Source: Candidatus Omnitrophota bacterium (GTDB lineage: Bacteria; Omnitrophota; Gorgyraeia; Gorgyraeales; Gorgyraeaceae). From it: DNA of 63,457 nucleotides. The notes under the pieces were generated by a model. The model did not search any database. It saw only the letters and a program-made list of their open reading frames with translations, and was not told where the DNA came from. Every line of letters begins with the position of its first letter. The stretch's first letter is position 1. Shown here piece after piece: positions 15,978 to 63,284 of the stretch. Location of the stretch: contig JAHJQM010000023.1 in assembly GCA_018819285.1 (NCBI GenBank), forward strand, positions 1 through 63,457, written 5' to 3'. The translations under genes were made by a program, and so were the position numbers.

Positions 15978-16035
15978 ACGCAGACTAAAGTCTGCTACTC
16001 CAAAACATGAGGGAGTAGCGAACTTTAGTTCGCGT
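15978..16035. repeat. Inverted pair of GTAG-type REP-like palindromes
   Basis: acgcagactaaagtctgctactcc ... ggagtagcgaactttagttcgcgt. Confidence 0.6.
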
Positions 16036-25098: not shown

Positions 25099-25173
25099 TG
25101 TCGCCTTTGAATTTTGTAAGTTGACACCGTGACATTGTCAGATTGTCAACTTACAAAATTGGCTAAGGGATTC
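25093..25173 (-). repeat. Element family C, copy 3 (minus strand), carrying a family A palindrome as its stem
   Basis: Reverse complement: gaatcccttagccaatttt-gt[aagttgaca...tgtcaactt]ac-aaaattcaaaggcgacaATGcat. Confidence 0.72.
25118..25152. repeat. 35-bp palindrome family A, copy 1
   Basis: aagttgacaccgtgacattgtcagattgtcaactt; contains the cinA stop. Confidence 0.85.
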
Positions 25174-29294: not shown

Positions 29295-29329
29295 AAGTTG
29301 ACATTGTGACAATGTTAGAGTGTCAACTT
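29295..29329. repeat. 35-bp palindrome family A, copy 2
   Basis: aagttgacattgtgacaatgttagagtgtcaactt, 2 nt after the htrA stop. Confidence 0.85.
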
Positions 29330-32044: not shown

Positions 32045-32079
32045 AAGTTTACAAACTGACATTGTCAGAGTGTCAACTT
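32045..32079. repeat. 35-bp palindrome family A, copy 3
   Basis: aagtttacaaactgacattgtcagagtgtcaactt right after the alaS stop. Confidence 0.85.
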
Positions 32080-36580: not shown

Positions 36581-38086
36581 ATGTATTATCCATCCAAACA
36601 AGAATTCATAAAGCTGGCTAAAAAGGCAAATGTAATCCCTGTCTATAAAGAAATTTTGGCAGATACATTAACCCCTGTTTCCGTCTTTCAAAAAATAGGC
36701 AAGGGGTATTCATATTTATTGGAGTCTGTTGAAGGCCAGGAAAAGATAGCGAGGTTTTCATTTATAGGCCTAGAGCCTTCTATAATATTAAAGAGCAAGG
36801 CGAATTCAATTGAGATGAATAAGGGCGGAAAAATTAAAAGATATCTTGCGGATGAGCCATTGAAAGAAATTGAAAATATAATGAATGATTTTAAAGCGGC
36901 TGAGACAAAGGGCCTTCCCAGGTTTTCCGGAGGGCTGGTAGGATATATGGGATATGATATGGTGAGATTTTTTGAGGACCTGCCTGATAAAAATCCTGAT
37001 GATTTGCAAGTTCCTGATTCTGTATTTATGATGGCGGACAGCCTAGTGATATTCGATCATTCAACGCACAAGGTTAAGATAGTGGTAAACGCGTATTTGG
37101 CTCAAGGCTCAACGCTCAAGGCTCGAAAGGTATACGAAAAAGCAATAGAAAAGATAGAAAAGATTATAAAGAAACTAGATAAGCCTGAAAAAAAACTAAA
37201 GGCATCCCTCGACTTCGCTCTGGATGAGAAAATAAAAAGTAAGAGGCACAAGATAAAATCAAATTTTACAAAAAAAGAATTTGAAGGCTTGGTTAAAAAA
37301 GCAAAGGAATATATAAAGGCCGGAGACATAATACAGGTTGTGCCGTCGCAGAGGTTTCACACAAAGCTCGACTGCGAGCCGTTTGATGTTTACCGTTCGC
37401 TTAGATCTTTAAATCCGTCGCCTTATATGTATTATCTGAATTTTAACGATCTAAAGATCGTAGGCTCGTCTCCGGAGCTTTTGGTTAGGTGCGAAAACGG
37501 AATAGTTGAGACCAGGCCTATAGCAGGCACAAGGCCGAGAGGCAGGAATGACGCCGAGGATAAAAAACTGGAAAAAGAGCTTTTAGCTGACGTAAAGGAA
37601 AGGGCAGAACATGTAATGTTGGTGGACCTTGGCAGGAATGACATAGGAAGGGTTTGTAAACCGGGCAGCGTGCACGTAACAGATTTTATGTTTATAGAGA
37701 GATATTCTCACGTCATGCATATTGTGAGTAATTGCAGGGGCATTCTTGATAAAAATAAGAATGCATTCGATGTCTTAAGGGCGTGTTTTCCAGCAGGAAC
37801 TGTATCAGGCGCTCCCAAGGTAAGGGCTATGGAGATAATAGACGAACTTGAGAATACAAAAAGAAGTTATTACGCAGGGGCCGTAGGATATTTTAGTTTT
37901 TCTGGGAATATGGACACTTGCATAACCATAAGGACTATGCTTGTTAAAGGAAGAGACGCTTTTATACAGGCAGGCGGAGGCATCGTAGCTGATTCTATCC
38001 CGTCCAGGGAATATCAGGAGACAGTGAATAAAGCAAAAGCAATGGTCAAGGCGATAGAAATCGCAGAAAGAGGATTGGCAAGTTGA
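36581..38086 (+). CDS. trpE: Anthranilate synthase component I
   Basis: [33 protein letters not shown]. Confidence 0.96.
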
Positions 38087-38114
38087 CACTCTAACATTGT
38101 CAGAGTGTCAACTT
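38080..38114. repeat. 35-bp palindrome family A, copy 4
   Basis: aagttgacactctaacattgtcagagtgtcaactt; supplies the trpE TGA. Confidence 0.88.
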
Positions 38115-41200: not shown

Positions 41201-41235
41201 AAGTTGACAAATTAACATTGTCAGAGTGTCAACTT
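41201..41235. repeat. 35-bp palindrome family A, copy 5
   Basis: aagttgacaaattaacattgtcagagtgtcaactt. Confidence 0.85.
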
Positions 41236-42806: not shown

Positions 42807-42861
42807 AACCTTTCAATATTTTGATAGATTATTTTCAGCATTTGTGGTAATATTTGTCGAT

Positions 42862-45666: not shown

Positions 45667-48327
45667 ATGAAAGACATACCTCCAAGATATAATCCAAAAG
45701 ATCACGAAGAGTCTATTTATTCTAAATGGGAAAATAGCGGGTTTTTTCATGCAGAGCCTGATTTTTCCAAGAAACCTTTTACTATAACAATTCCTCCTCC
45801 CAATGTTACGGGTATCCTGCATATGGGACACGCGCTGAACAATACATTGCAGGATATTCTTATAAGATGGAAAAGAATGCAAGGGTCTGCAAGTTTGTGG
45901 GTGCCTGGTACGGACCATGCTGGAATAGCTACGCAAAATGTTGTAGAAAGAAATCTGCATGAAAAAGGCATCACTAGGCAGGAGCTTGGAAGGGAAAAGT
46001 TTGTAGAAGAGATATGGAAGTGGAGGGAGAAATACGGGAATACCATTATAATGCAGCTTAAAAGACTGGGCGCTTCATGCGACTGGAAGAGAACGCGTTT
46101 TACCATGGATAAAGGCCTTTCAGAAGCAGTTTTGGAAGCATTTGTCCAACTCTATAATAAAGGTTTGATCTATAGGGGCAATTATATAATCAACTGGTGC
46201 CCCAGGTGCCGCACAGCTCTTTCCGATGAAGAAGCGCCTCACCAGAACGTAGAAGGAAAGCTGTATTATATATTGTATCTGTTTAAAGAGAGCGGAGAGC
46301 AGAGAGCGGAGAGTAAAGAAGGGGTGGTGGTGGCGACCACCAGGCCGGAGACCATGCTTGGAGATGTGGCAGTGGCTGTGAATCCAAAAGACAAAAGATA
46401 TAAGAAATTAATAGGAAAAAAACTCATATTGCCTCTTACGGAAAGAGAGATGGAAATAATAACGGACGATTTTGTGGATAAAAAGTTCGGCACAGGCGCT
46501 GTAAAAGTTACGCCCGCCCACGACTCTGATGATTACGATATGGCGAAGCGCCACAATTTGGAACCTGTGACTATTATGGGACCTGACGGAAGGATGAATG
46601 AAAATGCCGGCAGATTCAGTGGTCTGGATAGATTCGAGGCTAGAAAGTTAATAGTAGCCGAGCTTGAAGAAAAGAAACTACTAATAAAAATAGAAAAACA
46701 CGACTACGCAGTAGGGCATTGTTACAGGTGCCATACTGTTATAGAGCCGTATCTATCTTTGCAGTGGTTTGTGAGAATGAAGCCATTGGCAGAACCTGCA
46801 ATAGAAGTGGTCAAAAGAGGAAAAATTAAATTCCATCCAAAGAGGTGGACAAAGGTTTATCTGAATTGGATGGAGAATATAAAAGACTGGTGCATCTCAA
46901 GGCAGATATGGTGGGGGCATCGTTTACCTGTTTACTATTGCCAGAAATGTAACGCTGTGATTGTTTCAAAAGTTGCGCCTGAAAAATGCCAGAAGTGCGG
47001 CAGTCAGGATTTAAAACAGGATGAAGATGTGCTGGATACATGGTTTTCGTCTTGGTTGTGGCCGTTTTCAACTCTTGGATGGCCTGAAAAAACAAAAGAC
47101 CTGAGGTATTTTTACCCAACAGCTGTTTTGGTAACCGCGCCTGAGATATTATTTTTCTGGGTCGCAAGGATGATTATGTCAGGTAAGGAATTTATAAAAG
47201 AGATCCCATTCAGCGATGTTTATATACACGGGACTGTCAGGGACGCAACAGGCAAGAAGATGTCAAAATCTCTGGGCAATATAATAGACCCATTGGATAT
47301 AATAGACGAATTTGGCGCAGATGCTTTAAGATTTAGCATTATAGCTATAACCTCTGCTGGCCAAGATGTATTCTTATCAAAAGAAAAATTCGAAATAGGC
47401 AGGAATTTTGCGAATAAGATATGGAATGCGTCAAGGTTTGTGTTGATGAACGTGGGGGCGTCAGAGCTTCAGGGCACAGGAGCACTGGAAAAAGAAAATC
47501 TGAACATTGCTGACAAATGGATATTGAGTAGGTTAAATAGAACCATAGAAGCTGTGACCAAGGCATTAAAGAATTATAAATTCAATGAAGCAGAAAGCTT
47601 GGTGTATGATTTTTTCTGGCATGATTTTTGCGACTGGTATGTTGAAATGGTTAAGCCGCAGATTATAGGGCAAAGCGCGGAGAGCAAAGAGCGGAGAACA
47701 GGAGAAATTTTAATACACGTGCTTGAGAGTTCGCTGAAATTATTGCATCCGTTTATGCCGTTTGTGACAGAGGCAATATGGCAGAATATAAAAGAAAGAG
47801 AAAGCATAATGATTGCAGCTTGGCCTGAAGCAGACAAGCATTATATAGATAAAAAAATAGAGTCCGATATAGAAATAGTGAAAAATATTATAGTCAATAT
47901 AAGAAATATCCGTTCTGATATGAATATAGCTTATTCTAAAAAATTGACAGTAGGGCTTGCACCATTAAGACAAGGCGTTGGTTCTGTAATATCTGATAAT
48001 GCTGAATATATCAAAAATCTGGCCCATCTTGATAAATTGACAATAGATGAAAATTTTATAAGGCCGAAGAGCTGCCTCAGCGCTGTTGCAGAAGAGTTCA
48101 ATATATTTATTCCTTTGGAAGGCGTAATAGATGTGGCAGCAGAAAAGGCTAGGCTGACAAAGAAGCAGGATTTATTAAAGCAACAGATTGTGTTTACAGA
48201 AAAGAAATTGAAGGATAAGAATTTTATCAATAATGCTCCGGAAGAAGTAGTAAGGGCTGAGCATGAAAAGGCGGAGAAGATCAGAGAGCAAATAGATAGG
48301 TTGGGAAAGACTATTGAAGATCTGTAG
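45667..48327 (+). CDS. valS: Valine-tRNA ligase
   Basis: PPPNVTG.LHMGH, DWCISRQIWWGH, KMSKS. Confidence 0.98.
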   Translation: MKDIPPRYNPKDHEESIYSKWENSGFFHAEPDFSKKPFTITIPPPNVTGILHMGHALNNTLQDILIRWKRMQGSASLWVPGTDHAGIATQNVVERNLHEKGITRQELGREKFVEEIWKWREKYGNTIIMQLKRLGASCDWKRTRFTMDKGLSEAVLEAFVQLYNKGLIYRGNYIINWCPRCRTALSDEEAPHQNVEGKLYYILYLFKESGEQRAESKEGVVVATTRPETMLGDVAVAVNPKDKRYKKLIGKKLILPLTEREMEIITDDFVDKKFGTGAVKVTPAHDSDDYDMAKRHNLEPVTIMGPDGRMNENAGRFSGLDRFEARKLIVAELEEKKLLIKIEKHDYAVGHCYRCHTVIEPYLSLQWFVRMKPLAEPAIEVVKRGKIKFHPKRWTKVYLNWMENIKDWCISRQIWWGHRLPVYYCQKCNAVIVSKVAPEKCQKCGSQDLKQDEDVLDTWFSSWLWPFSTLGWPEKTKDLRYFYPTAVLVTAPEILFFWVARMIMSGKEFIKEIPFSDVYIHGTVRDATGKKMSKSLGNIIDPLDIIDEFGADALRFSIIAITSAGQDVFLSKEKFEIGRNFANKIWNASRFVLMNVGASELQGTGALEKENLNIADKWILSRLNRTIEAVTKALKNYKFNEAESLVYDFFWHDFCDWYVEMVKPQIIGQSAESKERRTGEILIHVLESSLKLLHPFMPFVTEAIWQNIKERESIMIAAWPEADKHYIDKKIESDIEIVKNIIVNIRNIRSDMNIAYSKKLTVGLAPLRQGVGSVISDNAEYIKNLAHLDKLTIDENFIRPKSCLSAVAEEFNIFIPLEGVIDVAAEKARLTKKQDLLKQQIVFTEKKLKDKNFINNAPEEVVRAEHEKAEKIREQIDRLGKTIEDL

Positions 48328-48334
48328 TTGGCTT

Positions 48335-48638
48335 TCTGCCCGTGCCAGCAGTTTAAGAGGCCTCTTTGACACGAGCGGGCACGGTGTCTGTTGAGCCAGG
48401 CGGAGCCATTCGGCACTGAATCGTTTCGCCGTCCGCTACGGTTTATGGTTCGTTCTTCTGTCGACTATCGTATTGTCAATCGAACAGAACTCACCATAAA
48501 TCCTTGCGGACTTTTGCCGAAACGATTCTAATGTGCCTCAGACCCCGCCTGGCTCAACAGACGAGCGAGGGTCAAAACGGAGCAAAATTTTCACGCTGGG
48601 AAAATTTTGCGTCCTCGCAAACTGCTGGCACGGGCAGA
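48335..48638. repeat. Large structured element family D, copy 1 (candidate ncRNA or non-autonomous element)
   Basis: 20-bp perfect terminal inverted repeat tctgcccgtgccagcagttt; nested stems; homologous to 49523-49838. Confidence 0.8.
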
Positions 48639-48655
48639 GTTAATGGTTAAATAAG

Positions 48656-49516
48656 ATGAAACTTACAAAAGAAAAGGTATTCCCAATAATTATAAGCGCT
48701 TTAAAAGAAGATATCGGTTCCGGAGATATTACAAGTGCAATTGTCTTTGAAAAGGACATTAATTTATTGGCGCATATTATAGCAAAAGAAGAATGTATTT
48801 TAGCCGGCATAGATGTTGCAAAATGGGTTTTTGACGCAGTTGATGAAAAAATAGCATTTACAGCTTTATTTAAGGACGGAGACAGTGTTAAGAAAAATAA
48901 AAGAGTTCTGTCTATAAAGGGTTCTGTGAAAAACATACTATCAGCCGAGAGGACTGTTTTAAATTTTCTTGGGCACCTTTCCGGCGTAGCGACGCTTACT
49001 GCTGAGTTTGTGAAAGAAATAAAAGGCACGGCTGCAAAGATATATGATACCAGAAAGACAACTCCTGGTTTAAGAGAAATGGAAAAATACGCTGTTGGCG
49101 CAGGAGGAGGATCTAATTTCAGAGTTGGTCTCTGGGACGGAATAATGATAAAGGATAATCATTTAAGAGCATTAAGAGAAAACGCTATAAAAGAATCAGT
49201 TTCTATGTTCAAAGGCAGGGGGTATAAAAATATTGAAGTTGAGGTGGAAAATATTGCAGAGTTTGAAGATGCTCTGGATGCAGGCGCGGATATTATAATG
49301 TTGGATAATATGAAGCCTGAAGAAATTAAAAAGGCAGTCAGGCTTAAAGATACAAGGAGTAAGGGCCGGTTTAGAAACGTAATTTTAGAAGCTTCTGGCG
49401 GGATTAGTTTGGAGAATGTAAAAAAGATCGCTAAAACAGGGGCTGACAGAATTTCAATAGGCAAACTCACCCACTCAGTTCCTTCAATAGATTTTTCGTT
49501 GGAGATTTGTAAGTAG
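48656..49516 (+). CDS. nadC: Quinolinate phosphoribosyltransferase
   Basis: EDIGSGDIT, DTRKTTPG, IKDNH, EVEV, MLDN, EASGGI. Confidence 0.95.
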   Translation: MKLTKEKVFPIIISALKEDIGSGDITSAIVFEKDINLLAHIIAKEECILAGIDVAKWVFDAVDEKIAFTALFKDGDSVKKNKRVLSIKGSVKNILSAERTVLNFLGHLSGVATLTAEFVKEIKGTAAKIYDTRKTTPGLREMEKYAVGAGGGSNFRVGLWDGIMIKDNHLRALRENAIKESVSMFKGRGYKNIEVEVENIAEFEDALDAGADIIMLDNMKPEEIKKAVRLKDTRSKGRFRNVILEASGGISLENVKKIAKTGADRISIGKLTHSVPSIDFSLEICK

Positions 49517-49522
49517 ATAATG

Positions 49523-49838
49523 TTAAGGGCCTCTGGCAGGCCTACGAAAAGCCTCGCCGATTCGAGCGGGCACGGTGTCCGCTGAGCCAGACTGGGGTCA
49601 TTCGGCACGAAATAATTTTGCCGTCCACTACGGTTTACAGCTTGTTTCTGTGTCGACTATCGTTTTGTCAACTGATCGAAACTCGCTGTAATCCCTTGCG
49701 GACATTTGCCAAAATTTTTCTAATGTGCCTCAGGCCCCAGTCTGGCTCACAGCGGACGAGCGAGAATCTGCGCGGAGCGAAGGACGCCACGCTGGGGCGT
49801 CCAAGCGTCTTTTTGTAGGCCTGCCAGAGGCCTCTTAA
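49523..49838. repeat. Large structured element family D, copy 2
   Basis: 18-bp perfect terminal inverted repeat ggcctctggcaggcctac; same loop motifs as copy 1 with different stems. Confidence 0.8.
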
Positions 49839-49853
49839 ACTAAAGCCTTATTT

Positions 49854-51824
49854 ATGCCAAAATTTCAATTAGTCGCTCCATTTAAGCCCTGCGGGGATCA
49901 GCAGCAGGCGATTGACAAGCTTGCAGATGGACTGCAAAAAAATCTGAAGTATCAGACGCTTCTTGGCGTTACTGGCAGCGGTAAAACATTTACTATGGCT
50001 AATGTGGTCAGTAATGTCCAAAGGCCTACGCTTGTGGTATCACATAATAAAACTCTTGCTGCGCAGTTATACAGCGAATTTAAAGAATTTTTTCCGCATA
50101 ATGCAGTTGAATATTTTGTAAGCTATTACGATTATTATCAGCCAGAGGCATATGTACCGCAGGCAGATATCTATATAGAAAAAGACGCTTCTATAAATGA
50201 TAATATAGACAGGCTCAGGCTATCCGCTACCAGTTCTCTTATGTCCAGGAGCGATGTTATTATAGTAGCAAGCGTGTCGTGCATTTACGGCCTAGGCGCG
50301 CCCGAAGATTATAAAGATTTATTGTTATTTTTAAAAAAGAAAGACACGATAAAAAGAAGCGACCTATTATCTCGCCTTGTAAACATACATTACACCAGAA
50401 ACGATATTGATTTTAAGAGAGGCTGTTTCAGGGTAAGGGGCGATACCATAGATATATTCCCTGCATATAAAGAAACATTTTTCAGGATAATTTTTTTTGG
50501 AGATGAGATAGAAAAGATTTCAGAATTAGAGCCTATTAGCGGCAGCGCACTCGCGGATTCTATTGAAAAGATAGCGATATATCCAGCTAAACATTTTGTC
50601 ACTACACAGGAAAGGATAGACTCGGCTATTATGTCAATAGAGACAGAGCTTGAAGAAAGGCTTAAGGAATTAAAGACGCAGAATAAATTATTGGAGGCGC
50701 AGAGGTTAGGGTCCAGGACGCGTTATGATATCGAGATGCTTCAGGAAATGGGATTTTGTAACGGTATAGAAAATTATTCAAGGCATCTAAGTCAAAGGCT
50801 TGCAGGTTCAAGGCCAAGCTGCCTTCTGGATTATTTCCCGAAAAATTTTTTGACAATAATTGATGAATCGCATGTTACAATGCCGCAACTGAGAGGCATG
50901 TATAAAGGAGATAGGGCTCGCAAGCAGACGCTTGTTGATTACGGATTTAGGCTTCCGTCAGCTTTGGATAACAGGCCTTTAAACTTTGAAGAATTTATGG
51001 CTATTGTTCATGAAACAGTATTTGTTTCAGCTACGCCTTCGGAATACGAGCTGCAAAATTCAGACCAGATAGTGGAACAGGTCATAAGGCCGACAGGGTT
51101 GTTGGACCCAGAAATAACTGTAAAGCCAACTAAGAATCAGATACCAGACCTTATTGAAAACATAAAACAAAGGGCATCGAAAAACCAGAGAGTATTTGTC
51201 ACTACTCTGACAAAAAGGATGTCCGAAGACCTTGCCGGGTATTTGAAAGAGTTGGGTCTGAGAGTAAAGTATATGCATTCAGAGTTAGATGCTATTGAGC
51301 GCTCAGAGATATTAAGGGATTTAAGAATGCAGAAATTTGATTGCCTTGTAGGGATAAACCTACTAAGAGAAGGCTTGGATTTGCCAGAGGTGGCTCTGGT
51401 GGCTATTTTGGATGCGGATAAAGAAGGTTTCCTTAGATCAGAGACATCTTTGATTCAGGTGGCAGGAAGGGCGGCCAGGAATATTGACGGCCATGTTATA
51501 ATGTATGCGGACACTATAACAAGTTCAATGAGAAAGGCTATTGAGGAAACAAATAGGAGAAGAGAGAAACAGATAGAGTTTAATAAGACAAATAATATTA
51601 CGCCCCGCTCTATTGAAAAGGCCATTAGAAACGGCATAGAATCTCTTAAAAAAGCAGAAGAGATTGTTATTGAGGCAGCTGGCCAGAGTGAAGAAGATTA
51701 TGAAAAAGAAATGGTAATTACCGAACTTGAAAGAGAGATGGAGCTTTTGGCTAGGAATTTACAGTTTGAACGCGCAGCGAAATTGAGAGACAGGATAAAG
51801 GGATTAAAAAATAATGTTAAATGA
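49854..51824 (+). CDS. uvrB: Excinuclease ABC subunit B
   Basis: [27 protein letters not shown]. Confidence 0.98.
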
Positions 51825-54583: not shown

Positions 54584-54616
54584 GTTGACACTCTGACATT
54601 GTCAGAGTGTCAACTT
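54582..54616. repeat. 35-bp palindrome family A, copy 6 (perfect)
   Basis: AAGTTGACACTCTGACA-T-TGTCAGAGTGTCAACTT overlapping the mnmA stop. Confidence 0.9.
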
Positions 54617-55433: not shown

Positions 55434-55510
55434 GGCGGCGTAGCTCAGCTTGGTAGAGCAGTCGGCTCATACCCGGCGTGTCACTGGTTCAAATCCAGTC
55501 GCCGCTACCA
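55434..55510 (+). tRNA. tRNA-Met(CAT), elongator type
   Basis: Cloverleaf GGCGGCG...CT CAT AC...GGTTCAAATCC...CGCCGCTACCA. Confidence 0.9.
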
Positions 55511-61124: not shown

Positions 61125-61157
61125 GTTGACACTCTAACATTGTTGGAGTGTCAACTT
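61123..61157. repeat. 35-bp palindrome family A, copy 7
   Basis: aagttgacactctaacattgttggagtgtcaactt overlapping the pdxJ stop. Confidence 0.88.
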
Positions 61158-61591: not shown

Positions 61592-62542
<951 letters not shown>

Positions 62543-62698
62543 TGTAAGCTTAAAAATAGTAGGTAGCAGGGGATTTGAATAGAGCTTTGCGCCGAGCGAA
62601 GCGAGGAAAAGTCCGCCAAGAATATTGGCGGACGACAGCAAAGCGAATGGCCGACTTTGCCCGAAGGGCAAAGCGCCAAATCTTTCTCTGTCTATCAT

Positions 62699-62769
62699 GC
62701 GGGTGTAGCTCAATGGTAGAGCGCTAGCCTTCCAAGCTAGTTACGACGGTTCGATCCCGTTCACCCGCT
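62699..62769 (+). tRNA. tRNA-Gly(TCC)
   Basis: GCGGGTG/CACCCGC acceptor, CT TCC AA loop; no encoded CCA. Confidence 0.95.
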
Positions 62770-62792
62770 CCGAATTTTGCTTCACAAATTTC

Positions 62793-62867
62793 GCTGGCGT
62801 AGCTCAACGGCAGAGCAATGGTTTTGTAAACCATAGGTTGGAGGTTCGATTCCTCTCGCCAGCTCCA
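62793..62867 (+). tRNA. tRNA-Thr(TGT)
   Basis: GCTGGCG/CGCCAGC acceptor, TT TGT AA loop, CCA end. Confidence 0.95.
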
Positions 62868-63022
62868 GATTATTGAAGAGGAATCGAAGTGAGTCCCGAT
62901 AAATGCGACGCATAGGAGCATTTGTTTATCGGGACGAGTGGCCGACTTTGCCCGAAGGGCAAAGCGCCGATTCCTCTCGCCAGCTCCAGATTATTGAAGA
63001 GGAATCGAAGTGAGTCCCGATA
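62847..63022 (+). repeat. 55-bp perfect direct repeat duplicating the tRNA-Thr 3' end (121-bp period)
   Basis: 62847-62901 is identical to 62968-63022. Confidence 0.88.
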
Positions 63023-63141
63023 GTTCCACAATTTTTGTATTATTTGAATAGTTAGGTAACATATATTGCAATAGCCAGGGCTGGCAAGAACAATCGGCGT
63101 TACCTATTATTGAAAATAGTATAAAATATATTATTTTTTTC

Positions 63142-63169
63142 TTGACAATAGCCTAGAATATGGTAAAAT
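63142..63169 (+). promoter_or_regulatory. Promoter for tRNA-Thr(GGT)-tuf
   Basis: TTGACA-16 nt-TAAAAT with extended TG. Confidence 0.6.
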
Positions 63170-63211
63170 TCCTAATTCTATATACCATATACCATGATAG
63201 CGGCATTTAAT

Positions 63212-63284
<73 letters not shown>

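What the first reader, a model, noticed from the sequence alone, without database searches (positions are those of the whole stretch)
48335..49838. Two ~305-315-nt GC-rich rod-like elements with strong covariation flanking nadC
Seen: 48335-48638 and 49523-49838 are in direct orientation. They share motifs in the same order (cgagcgggcacggtgtc, cattcggcac, ccgtcc.ctacggttta, gtcgactatcgt.ttgtcaa, ccttgcggac, ctaatgtgcctcag, gacgagcgag, cacgctggg), while paired segments differ but stay complementary. The terminal stems are unrelated (20 versus 18 bp perfect); gcaaaatttt/aaaattttgc versus ggacgc/gcgtcc close the same loop; ttatggt/accataa corresponds to ttacagc/gctgtaa. Conserved loops with swapped stems indicate selection on structure. 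I cannot assign these to a known RNA family. Inference: a novel large ncRNA/ribozyme-like element or ssDNA-hairpin mobile element.
Basis: partly seen in the sequence, partly recalled or inferred. Interest (0 to 1): 0.78.

Follow-up and report, generated by a model that had tools for sequence, protein, structure and literature searches.

The report
Nested palindromic mobile DNA repeats, Omnitrophota
The two GC-rich rods on either side of nadC are real, but they are copies of a many-copy, modular, hairpin-forming DNA repeat that comes and goes between genes in one group of uncultivated Omnitrophota bacteria, and their base-pairing pattern looks like that of a DNA palindrome, not a working RNA.

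Summary
Observation confirmed: 48335-48638 and 49523-49838 fold into rods (z -11 and -14) and share ordered motifs, with swapped but still complementary stems. Neither matches any Rfam 15 family.

They are not a two-copy RNA. The genome (1.56 Mb, Ca. Omnitrophota, named in earlier notes) holds 36 loci of this family, all intergenic. A model of the 168-nt core finds it in 26 of 38 genomes of the family and 17 of 151 sampled from the phylum.

The family is modular. The core occurs alone or inside one of two outer modules: A is type 1, B is type 2. At the same gene junctions in relatives, copies are present, absent, swapped or flipped.

Covariation is very strong (40 of 49 pairs), but it looks DNA-like. 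G-U (38) equals A-C (34), whereas RNase P RNA from the same genomes gives 202 versus 7. Both strands fold equally well.

Framed type-2 copies carry TGT...ACA inverted repeats, and 6 of 7 have about 15-bp target duplications, the IS1202/ISTde1 hallmark. A, B and bare cores have none, so what moves them is unknown. No tyrosine (Y1) transposase gene lies next to a copy (0 of 23).

This scan found the family before on other DNA. I read it as a new member of a known kind (MITE/REPIN/BIME-like).

The parts
48335..48638 (+). Element A: 304-nt rod of the type-1 subfamily, filling the valS-nadC spacer. It starts 8 nt after the valS stop and ends 18 nt before the nadC start.
   Evidence: Sequence; fold; nhmmer 312 bits, self hit; ORF map.
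48335..48354 (+). A, 5' arm of the 20-bp perfect terminal stem. It pairs with 48619-48638.
   Evidence: stem run of 20.
48372..48388 (+). A, conserved unpaired 5' junction motif of the outer module (CGAGCGGGCACGGTGTC). It is shared by type-1 and type-2 copies.
48390..48557 (+). A, core module of 168 nt: helices P1-P5 around conserved internal loops. The best-kept part across the class is around 48423-48446 and 48491-48534.
   Evidence: R1 match 193.3 bits, E 3e-40; conservation map.
48558..48638 (+). A, 3' half of the outer module: GACGAGCGAG junction, side hairpin 48582-48610 closing the CACGCTGGG loop, then the 3' arm of the terminal stem.
49523..49838 (+). Element B: 316-nt rod of the type-2 subfamily in the nadC-uvrB spacer.
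49528..49545 (+). B, 5' arm of the 18-bp perfect terminal stem. It pairs with 49815-49832.
49582..49749 (+). B, core module.
   Evidence: R1 match 192.3 bits.
49750..49838 (+). B, 3' half of the outer module, with side hairpin 49782-49802 (GGACGC / loop / GCGTCC) and the 3' arm of the terminal stem.
49508..49527 (+). Possible decayed left inverted repeat of the IS1202-like frame seen on other type-2 copies (starts TGTAA, holds AATGTTA). No target duplication. Inconclusive.
   Evidence: Compared by eye with the frames; empty site of G006.
45667..48327 (+). valS, the gene upstream of A.
   Evidence: NCBIfam valS 1251.8 bits.
48656..49516 (+). nadC, the gene between A and B.
   Evidence: TIGR00078 304 bits.
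49854..51824 (+). uvrB, the gene downstream of B.
   Evidence: NF003673 1059.7 bits.

Best explanation
A and B are two resident copies of a non-coding, modular, nested-palindrome DNA repeat family. The family is limited, in the genomes sampled, to one class of Ca. Omnitrophota. Its basic unit is a core of about 168 nt: a rod of five helices around conserved asymmetric internal loops. The core occurs alone or enclosed, almost always in one orientation, in one of two outer modules (type 1 = A, type 2 = B), giving rods of about 300 nt. Some type-2 rods are further enclosed in an IS1202/ISTde1-like frame, giving a 393-459-bp miniature transposon.

The elements behave as mobile or recombining DNA, not as RNA genes. 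They settle in the spacers, or at the overlaps, between tightly packed genes. They are gained, lost, swapped for other palindromic repeats, internally deleted and occasionally flipped.

Shown here: copy number, distribution, modularity, insertion polymorphism, DNA-type covariation, and the inverted repeats and target duplications of the framed copies.

Inferred: framed type-2 copies are moved in trans by a DDE transposase of the IS1202 family. Bare rods such as A and B either spread by a still unidentified route that needs the hairpin form, or are frame-less descendants spread by recombination between copies. The arms stay complementary because only intact hairpins propagate, and because copies exchange ready-paired segments. 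Once inserted in an operon the rod is simply co-transcribed and tolerated.
For: Copy number: nhmmer finds 41 hits, which merge into 36 loci in the 1.56-Mb assembly. 27 are complete and 9 are cut by contig ends. None of the 36 is spanned by an ORF of 80 aa or more.

Distribution: BLAST finds the family in 20 of 41 relatives, including 12 of 12 in the genus. Core model R1 finds it in 26 of 38 genomes of the family and 17 of 151 of a phylum sample. All 17 are labelled same class or closer.

Modularity: of 77 distinct full-length cores with flanks, 37 sit forward inside an outer module, 29 stand alone, 3-4 are reversed and the rest have a partial outer module. One outer module has no core and is nested upside down inside another, at C59:19249-19603. 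Tip, P3 and outer variants reassort between copies.

Orthologous junctions: the valS-nadC junction is filled by type 1 in 2 of 11 genomes. 4 have a 23-nt hairpin instead, 1 has other palindromes and 4 have no spacer. The nadC-uvrB junction is filled in 4 of 9: one with the core reversed (G008), one with the 3' branch deleted (G001). G000 has clean empty sites where G005 or G006 are filled (C24:42813-15, C40:4300, C61:13330), and a different repeat where G006 has a type-1 rod (C45, C40:6600).

DNA-type pairing: on 68 cores, 96.8% of cells pair, against 75.7% when shuffled. 40 of 49 pairs show double changes. The covariation score is 0.570, against 0.119 or less with slid partners. Yet G-U = 38 and A-C = 34 of about 3,170 cells, once a single fixed G-T column is set aside. 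In 16 RNase P RNAs of the same family, G-U = 202 and A-C = 7 of 1,334 cells. In single-sequence folds G-U counts are 113 (sense) and 140 (antisense). Both strands fold equally well.

Orientation relative to co-directional neighbouring genes: 12 the same, 8 opposite.

Frame: 6 of 7 framed type-2 copies have flanking direct repeats matching at 12-14 of 15-16 bases. Mismatched control pairs average 6.6, maximum 10, n 42. The ends are TGT...ACA. A full IS with an ISNCY_2 transposase, TGT...ACA ends and a perfect 16-bp duplication exists in the same genus (G001). Siguier et al. (bioRxiv 10.1101/2022.12.17.520857; passages read) give TGT ends and 15-17-bp repeats as marks of the ISTde1 subgroup.
Against: A and B themselves have no conserved inverted-repeat frame and no target duplication. 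7 type-1 and 4 core-only copies match at 4-8 of 16 flank bases, against a control mean of 6.4. Their own mobility mechanism is therefore not shown.

No IS with the same inverted repeats as the type-2 frame was found in 38 family genomes or in the genome collection. G000 has no ISNCY_2-type transposase.

The internal loops are strongly conserved and strand-specific: R1 scores about 190 bits on the sense strand and about 65 on the antisense. One G-T pair is kept in 41 of 67 copies. Something therefore reads one strand or one orientation, and an RNA or a protein that binds one strand is not excluded.

Element A is 97.7% identical to its G006 orthologue while the coding flanks are 84-90% identical. 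That needs constraint or concerted evolution.

Expression was not testable. The alignment used for pair counts was fitted to the model's structure.
Confidence: 0.68

Rival explanations
1. REPIN-like elements: all the rods, including A and B, are moved as single-stranded DNA hairpins by a domesticated HUH tyrosine (Y1, RAYT-type) transposase. That enzyme would recognise the conserved asymmetric loops. This would explain the lack of target duplications.
For: Bare rods have no target duplication. They are strict hairpins with common compensating changes, as described for REPINs (Bertels & Rainey 2011, PMC3116915; passages read). Y1 transposase genes occur in 36 of 38 genomes of the family, with 3 in G000. 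One of them is a working REP system of another sequence family, with about 95 palindromes. The conserved loops are strand-specific.
Against: None of 23 Y1 gene neighbourhoods examined (+-2 kb; 3 in G000, 20 of about 100 listed in relatives) holds a core or an A/B-like sequence. RAYT genes are typically flanked by their own REPs. Y1 genes are also present in genomes without the core, so their presence does not discriminate. The rods are 5-10 times longer than REPs. The framed copies clearly use another route.
Confidence: 0.15
2. A structured non-coding RNA, cis-acting or free-standing and possibly catalytic, kept by selection on RNA structure and multiplied by retro- or DNA-level copying.
For: Stability is very high and covariation is strong. 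Unpaired nucleotides are conserved between variable helices. The sequence is GC-rich in a 39% GC genome. One G-U pair is kept. In operons the rods must be transcribed.
Against: No Rfam 15 family matches, at gathering score or at E up to 10. G-U equals A-C (38 versus 34), against 202 versus 7 in RNase P RNA of the same genomes. The antisense strand folds as well and has as many G-U pairs. Either orientation occurs relative to neighbouring genes (12 versus 8). Copies are absent from orthologous sites in close relatives. No promoter or terminator signal exceeds chance.
Confidence: 0.07
3. Repeats domesticated by the host: the rods persist because, as DNA cruciforms or as double-stranded RNA in polycistronic transcripts, they serve the cell. 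Possible roles are operon punctuation, RNase III processing, mRNA stabilisation, or supplying a stop codon and a ribosome-binding site between formerly overlapping genes.
For: Copies sit exactly between a stop and a start, often where relatives have overlapping ATGA junctions. The filled junctions carry their own stop codon and spacer before the next start. A is more conserved than its coding flanks (97.7% versus 84-90%). The family persists across a class.
Against: The same junctions work without any rod in close relatives. Other orthologous copies diverge faster than their flanks (67-91% versus 90-95%). Orientation is not fixed. Selection against disruptive insertions explains the placement equally well.
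Confidence: 0.1

Closest known systems
REP / BIME / REPIN elements with RAYT (Y1) transposases of Proteobacteria (Bertels & Rainey 2011, PMC3116915)
   Same: Both are extragenic, high-copy palindromes that form hairpins, with common compensating changes in the stems. Both form mosaic or higher-order arrangements, are vertically persistent within a lineage, and make no target duplication (as for the bare rods here).
   Different: The units here are 168-325 nt with five or more nested helices and conserved asymmetric loops, not doublets of 20-40-nt REPs. No Y1 gene was found beside any copy (0 of 23). The REP/RAYT pair in this genome uses an unrelated palindrome.
IS1202 family, ISTde1 subgroup, and its non-autonomous derivatives (Siguier et al., bioRxiv 10.1101/2022.12.17.520857)
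   Same: Framed type-2 copies start with TGT and end with ACA, carry inverted repeats of about 26 bp, and are flanked by direct repeats of about 15 bp (6 of 7). A full IS of this kind with a 16-bp repeat lives in the same genus.
   Different: A and B lack the frame and the duplication. The inverted repeats of the frame differ from those of the full IS copies found. The bulk of the element is a GC-rich rod that also exists on its own, so it is a passenger or a separate element and not a shrunken IS.
Hairpin-forming bacterial MITEs that are co-transcribed with neighbouring genes (Correia/NEMIS, ERIC/IRU, RUP, BOX; Rickettsia RPE). These names are recalled; none was tested here.
   Same: Small, non-coding, dispersed and intergenic. 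They fold into long hairpins, are present or absent between close relatives, and occur in either orientation.
   Different: Those families have conserved termini and usually short target duplications. Here the termini vary, the interior junctions are the conserved part, and modules nest inside one another.

Membership tests
Any Rfam 15 RNA family (including self-cleaving ribozymes, HEARO, OLE, GOLLD, ROOL) | Match to the family's covariance model at its gathering score | tested here: not met
   The whole window at gathering score gives only 5 tRNAs. Region 48200-49950 at E up to 10 gives 4 chance-level hits, none above 19.2 bits.
Structured RNA under RNA-level selection (generic) | Wobble (G-U) pairs tolerated far more than A-C, and one strand favoured | tested here: not met
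   G-U 38 versus A-C 34. RNase P control: 202 versus 7. G-U counts 113 sense versus 140 antisense. Folding energies are equal on both strands.
REPIN / RAYT system | High-copy extragenic hairpin with compensating changes | tested here: met
REPIN / RAYT system | A single-copy Y1 (RAYT) gene flanked by the same repeat | tested here: not met
   0 of 23 Y1 gene neighbourhoods hold the element. About 80 further Y1 genes listed were not examined.
REPIN / RAYT system | Unit made of two inverted short REPs (20-40 nt) with a spacer | tested here: not met
   The unit is a 168-nt multi-helix rod with conserved asymmetric loops.
IS1202 family (ISTde1 subgroup) derivative, i.e. MITE | Terminal inverted repeats beginning 5'-TGT | tested here: met
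   Met for framed type-2 copies. Not met, or decayed, for A and B.
IS1202 family (ISTde1 subgroup) derivative, i.e. MITE | Direct target repeats of 15-17 bp | tested here: met
   6 of 7 framed copies match at 12-14 of 15-16 bases; control mean 6.6, maximum 10. For A, B, type-1 and core-only copies: not met.
IS1202 family (ISTde1 subgroup) derivative, i.e. MITE | A parent IS with matching inverted repeats and an IS1202-type transposase | tested here: not met
   ISNCY_2 transposases score over cut-off in 6 of 38 family genomes and in none of G000's contigs. Their inverted repeats differ. The inverted-repeat pattern gives only 3 exact hits in the genome collection, all at known copies.
Classical MITE (for A and B themselves) | Conserved terminal inverted repeats plus a target-site duplication | tested here: not met
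   Terminal stems differ between copies. There are no flanking direct repeats. The site left empty in G006 shows none for B.

The most novel reading that the evidence does not exclude
The bare rods are substrates of a hairpin-specific DNA mobilisation or maintenance system that has not been described. It would be neither RAYT-linked nor DDE-framed. It would read the roughly 50-nt conserved asymmetric 'heart' of the core on one strand, insert without duplicating the target at stop/start junctions, and keep the arms complementary by copying one arm from the other. That last step would explain all four Watson-Crick pairs at single stem positions with almost no intermediates.
Probability: 0.12. 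Interest if true: 0.7.

Novelty: new member of a known kind. Interest (0 to 1): 0.35.

Why it matters
The finding guards against a tempting mistake. Here is a 300-nt element with textbook 'covariation' that is not an RNA. The G-U versus A-C count, run against RNase P RNA of the same genomes, is a cheap test that separates DNA palindromes from structured RNAs. It should be applied to the many similar candidates in Omnitrophota and CPR genomes.

The family also shows how compact 1-2-Mb genomes with overlapping genes tolerate hundreds of nested palindromes at operon junctions. It gives a concrete case of a hairpin module riding inside IS1202-type miniature transposons.

If the bare rods turn out to have their own enzyme, that would be a new mobilisation system.

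Tried and rejected
- Rfam at gathering score and at E up to 10: nothing.
- RNA evidence: no RNA holder listed among the 24 runs found, so expression is untested.
- Laid contigs of 4 groundwater DNA runs. Contigs break inside the rods, and depth there is inflated by repeats. One contig each in X4 and X2 skips 293 and 319 nt of B, at 85% likeness with sides of 41 and 36 nt. I treat these only as a weak hint of rod-less alleles in related populations.
- Y1/RAYT linkage: not found.
- Parent IS for the type-2 frame: not found. The only rve-type gene in G000 (contig C13) is IS481-like and has no matching ends.
- Promoter or terminator signals in 48200-49950: 4 and 3 sites, against 2.4 and 1.8 expected.
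- Plasmid and phage collections: no match.
- Protein-coding reading: the 66-codon ORF at 49618-49818 lies inside B only, and copies differ by insertions of non-triplet length. Rejected without a homology search.
- Integron attC, viroid-like and retron readings were considered from memory. I dropped them because the flanking genes are housekeeping genes in conserved synteny and there are 36 dispersed copies.
- Core insertions in RNase P RNA genes: none.
- Literature: searches for 'Omnitrophota + palindromic + repeat' gave 4 papers, 3 listed, none on such repeats. 'Omnitrophica + miniature inverted-repeat' gave 0. Supplements of the IS1202 preprint were not seen; its table of family members might list related IS.
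Full report
**Observation.** The two stretches are as described. They lie in direct orientation in the valS-nadC and nadC-uvrB spacers; the gene names were confirmed with NCBIfam. They align at 83% mean column identity, with all listed motifs in the same order. As RNA, A folds at -159.2 kcal/mol (z -11.1) and B at -169.3 (z -14.1). None of 100 shuffles does as well. No Rfam 15 family matches, at gathering score or at E up to 10.

**It is a large repeat family.** The window is contig C24 of a 1.56-Mb, 69-contig, 39% GC assembly; the elements are 53-55% GC. Earlier notes of this scan name the organism as Ca. Omnitrophota, and the DNA runs that hold it are groundwater metagenomes.
- nhmmer with A gives 41 hits, which merge into 36 loci. 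27 are complete and 9 are cut by contig ends.
- On a crude ORF map, none of the 36 lies inside an ORF of 80 aa or more. Many fill the whole spacer to within 8-30 nt of the gene ends.
- BLAST finds the family in 20 of 41 relatives, including 12 of 12 in the genus.
- A covariance model of the 168-nt core (R1, 49 pairs) finds it in 26 of 38 genomes of the family and in 17 of 151 genomes sampled across the phylum. All 17 are labelled same class or closer.
- There is no match in the plasmid or phage collections.

**Architecture.** The family is modular.
- The core is a rod of helices P1-P5 separated by conserved asymmetric internal loops.
- When the core stands alone, it measures 167-169 nt between the ends of a perfect 15-18-bp stem.
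- The core can also sit inside an outer module, of which there are two main versions. Type 1 is A; type 2 is B. Both share the unpaired junction motifs and the CACGCTGGG hairpin loop, but use different helices.
- An outer module can exist without a core and can be nested upside down in another one (C59:19249-19603).
- Variants of the tip, of P3 and of the outer module reassort between copies.
- Across the class, the best-kept part is a stretch of about 50 nt around P3-P5. The apical tip is not conserved.

**Behaviour at orthologous sites.** Synteny valS-nadC-uvrB holds across the genus. The junctions differ as follows.

| Junction | Genomes with the junction on the locus | Filled by this family | Other states |
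|---|---|---|---|
| valS-nadC | 11 | 2 (G000, G006; type-1 rod) | 4 have a 23-nt hairpin, 1 has other palindromes, 4 have no spacer |
| nadC-uvrB | 9 | 4 (G000, G005, G008, G001; type-2 rod) | 2 have no spacer, 1 has 36 nt, 2 have unrelated sequence |

In G008 the core is reversed inside the same outer frame. In G001 the 3' branch is deleted.

In the other direction, G000 has clean empty sites where G005 or G006 are filled:
- Window position 42813-15, where G006 has a 438-nt composite.
- C40:4300.
- C61:13330, which is an ATGA stop/start overlap.

No target duplication is visible at these sites. At C45 and C40:6600, G006 has a type-1 rod where G000 has a cassette with a different palindrome. 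At C38:13250, G000 keeps only an internally deleted remnant.

Orthologous copies range from 67% to 98% identity, while their flanks are 84-95% identical. They differ by 31 fully compensated pairs, 18 changes to G-U and 9 changes to A-C, among other changes. A is the exception: 97.7% identical, against flanks of 84-90%.

**The covariation is real but is the DNA kind.** On 68 cores aligned to R1 (67 distinct):
- 96.8% of cells pair, against 75.7% after shuffling.
- 40 of 49 pairs show changes on both sides.
- The score is 0.570, against 0.119 or less when partners are slid by 1-3 columns.
- The alignment was fitted to the model, which favours pairing.

The mismatches are the telling part. Setting aside one column that is G-T in 41 of 67 copies, there are 38 G-U cells and 34 A-C cells among about 3,170. 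Distal P1 positions show all four Watson-Crick pairs with almost no intermediates.

The same count on 16 RNase P RNAs from the same family of genomes (MAFFT plus RNAalifold) gives 202 G-U and 7 A-C of 1,334 cells.

Without any alignment, single-sequence folds of the 27 complete copies hold 113 G-U pairs on the sense strand and 140 on the antisense. Both strands fold equally well.

Of 20 loci whose two neighbouring ORFs run the same way, 12 share the core's direction and 8 oppose it.

An RNA under selection should tolerate wobble pairs, prefer one strand and keep one orientation. This element does none of these. What remains strand-specific is the set of conserved loops: R1 scores about 190 bits on the sense strand and about 65 on the antisense.

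**How it moves.** One layer is explained.
- Complete type-2 elements carry a further outer frame: inverted repeats of about 26 bp that start with TGT and end with ACA.
- In 6 of 7 framed copies, the 16 bases outside the two ends match at 12-14 positions as a direct repeat of about 15 bp. The mean is 6.6 and the maximum 10 in 42 mismatched control pairs.
- TGT ends with 15-17-bp repeats mark the ISTde1 subgroup of the IS1202 family (Siguier et al., bioRxiv 10.1101/2022.12.17.520857; passages read). The lead to this family came from earlier notes.
- ISNCY_2-type transposases score over the curated cut-off in 6 of 38 genomes of the family. Two of those genomes are in the genus. One copy in G001 has TGT...ACA ends and a perfect 16-bp duplication.
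- Their inverted repeats differ from those of the frame. G000 has no such gene. No parent IS was found.

A, B, the other type-1 copies and the bare cores have no such frame and no flanking repeat beyond chance. B has at most a decayed left repeat.

The obvious alternative is a RAYT-like Y1 transposase, and it has no support. Y1 genes are in 36 of 38 genomes whether or not the core is present. The three in G000 go with other palindromes or with none. None of 23 Y1 neighbourhoods examined holds the element.

**Reading.** A and B are resident copies of a mobile, recombining family of nested DNA palindromes.
- Shown: number, distribution, modularity, site polymorphism, DNA-type covariation, and the transposon frame of one subfamily.
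- Inferred: trans-mobilisation of framed copies by an IS1202-type enzyme; an unidentified hairpin-dependent or recombinational route for bare rods; maintenance of complementarity by propagation of intact hairpins and by exchange of ready-paired segments; passive co-transcription.
- The conserved asymmetric loops and the high conservation of A are not explained by pure junk. They keep open a protein-recognition, host-use or RNA role.

**Comparison and novelty.** The element works like REP/BIME/REPIN repeats and like hairpin MITEs. One subfamily meets two of three tested marks of an IS1202/ISTde1 derivative. It fails the REPIN marks of a linked RAYT gene and a short REP doublet.

I found no paper on such repeats in this phylum.

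This scan has reported the same family before on other DNA: e1-803582 in this genome, and e1-1101060 at the nadC leader of another genome. Both reached the same general verdict.
- The G-U versus A-C test with an RNase P control.
- The class-wide distribution.
- Counts of module arrangements.
- The measured 15-bp duplications of the framed subfamily.
- The negative Y1 linkage.

**Not done.** Expression could not be tested because no RNA run is listed. Replication-strand bias could not be tested on a fragmented assembly. About 80 further Y1 genes were not examined.

Noticed in passing
window 25129-25150, 29297-29327, 32056-32077, 38082-38112, 41212-41233, 54584-54614, 61125-61155; G000:C30:19321-20250: A separate REP-type palindrome family, with 179 arm matches (about 95 palindromes) genome-wide. 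The same motif flanks a 310-aa Y1 (RAYT-like) transposase gene on contig C30. It is unrelated in sequence to the rods and never lies next to them.
   Followed up: partly
window 15979-16034; G000:C3:4790-5407: A second, low-copy palindrome (10 matches) flanks another Y1 transposase gene on contig C3. Two copies lie in the window.
   Followed up: partly
window 42813-42815: This is an empty site. The close relative G006 (L110:1312-1749) has here a 438-nt composite of the same family: a half core, a core-less type-1 outer module upside down, and a reversed core. No target duplication is visible.
   Followed up: yes
L135, L139, L140, L141, L143, L144 (RNase P RNA genes of relatives): RNase P RNA genes in this family range from 334 to 511 nt. 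The extra length comes from 55-72-nt hairpin insertions with shared GATCCYTCGG...CYTCGGGATC arms, at three different places of the gene in different genomes. This looks like a small mobile hairpin landing inside a functional RNA gene.
   Followed up: partly
L158 (G001:C26), about 1240-2830 in the transposase's orientation: A full IS with a 444-aa ISNCY_2-type transposase (380 bits, over cut-off), TGT...ACA ends and a perfect 16-bp direct repeat. This is a live IS1202/ISTde1-type element in the same genus.
   Followed up: partly
L041, L044, L045, L051 (valS-nadC spacer of G005, G002, G003, G011): A 23-nt perfect hairpin (GGGAACGGTTT.AAACCGTTCCC) occupies the same spacer that holds element A in G000 and G006.
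   Followed up: no
L113:747-884 (G005:C40), empty at G000:C40:12690-12693: A 138-nt AT-rich palindromic insertion of yet another family lies between two genes. It is absent from G000.
   Followed up: no
G000:C13 (2,023-bp contig): A short contig holds only an IS481-like transposase (199.5 bits, just under the 224-bit cut-off) and a second partial one. It may be a collapsed IS or a stray contig.
   Followed up: partly
G000:C46:1553-2011 and C63:102-548: About 20 nt outside two type-2 copies lies ATCATATTGGGAGGAC, the reverse complement of the left end of the IS1202-type IS seen in G001 (L152).
   Followed up: no
window 55434-55507 and 62457-63284: Five tRNA genes lie here, four of them clustered at the end of the window (Rfam).
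   Followed up: no
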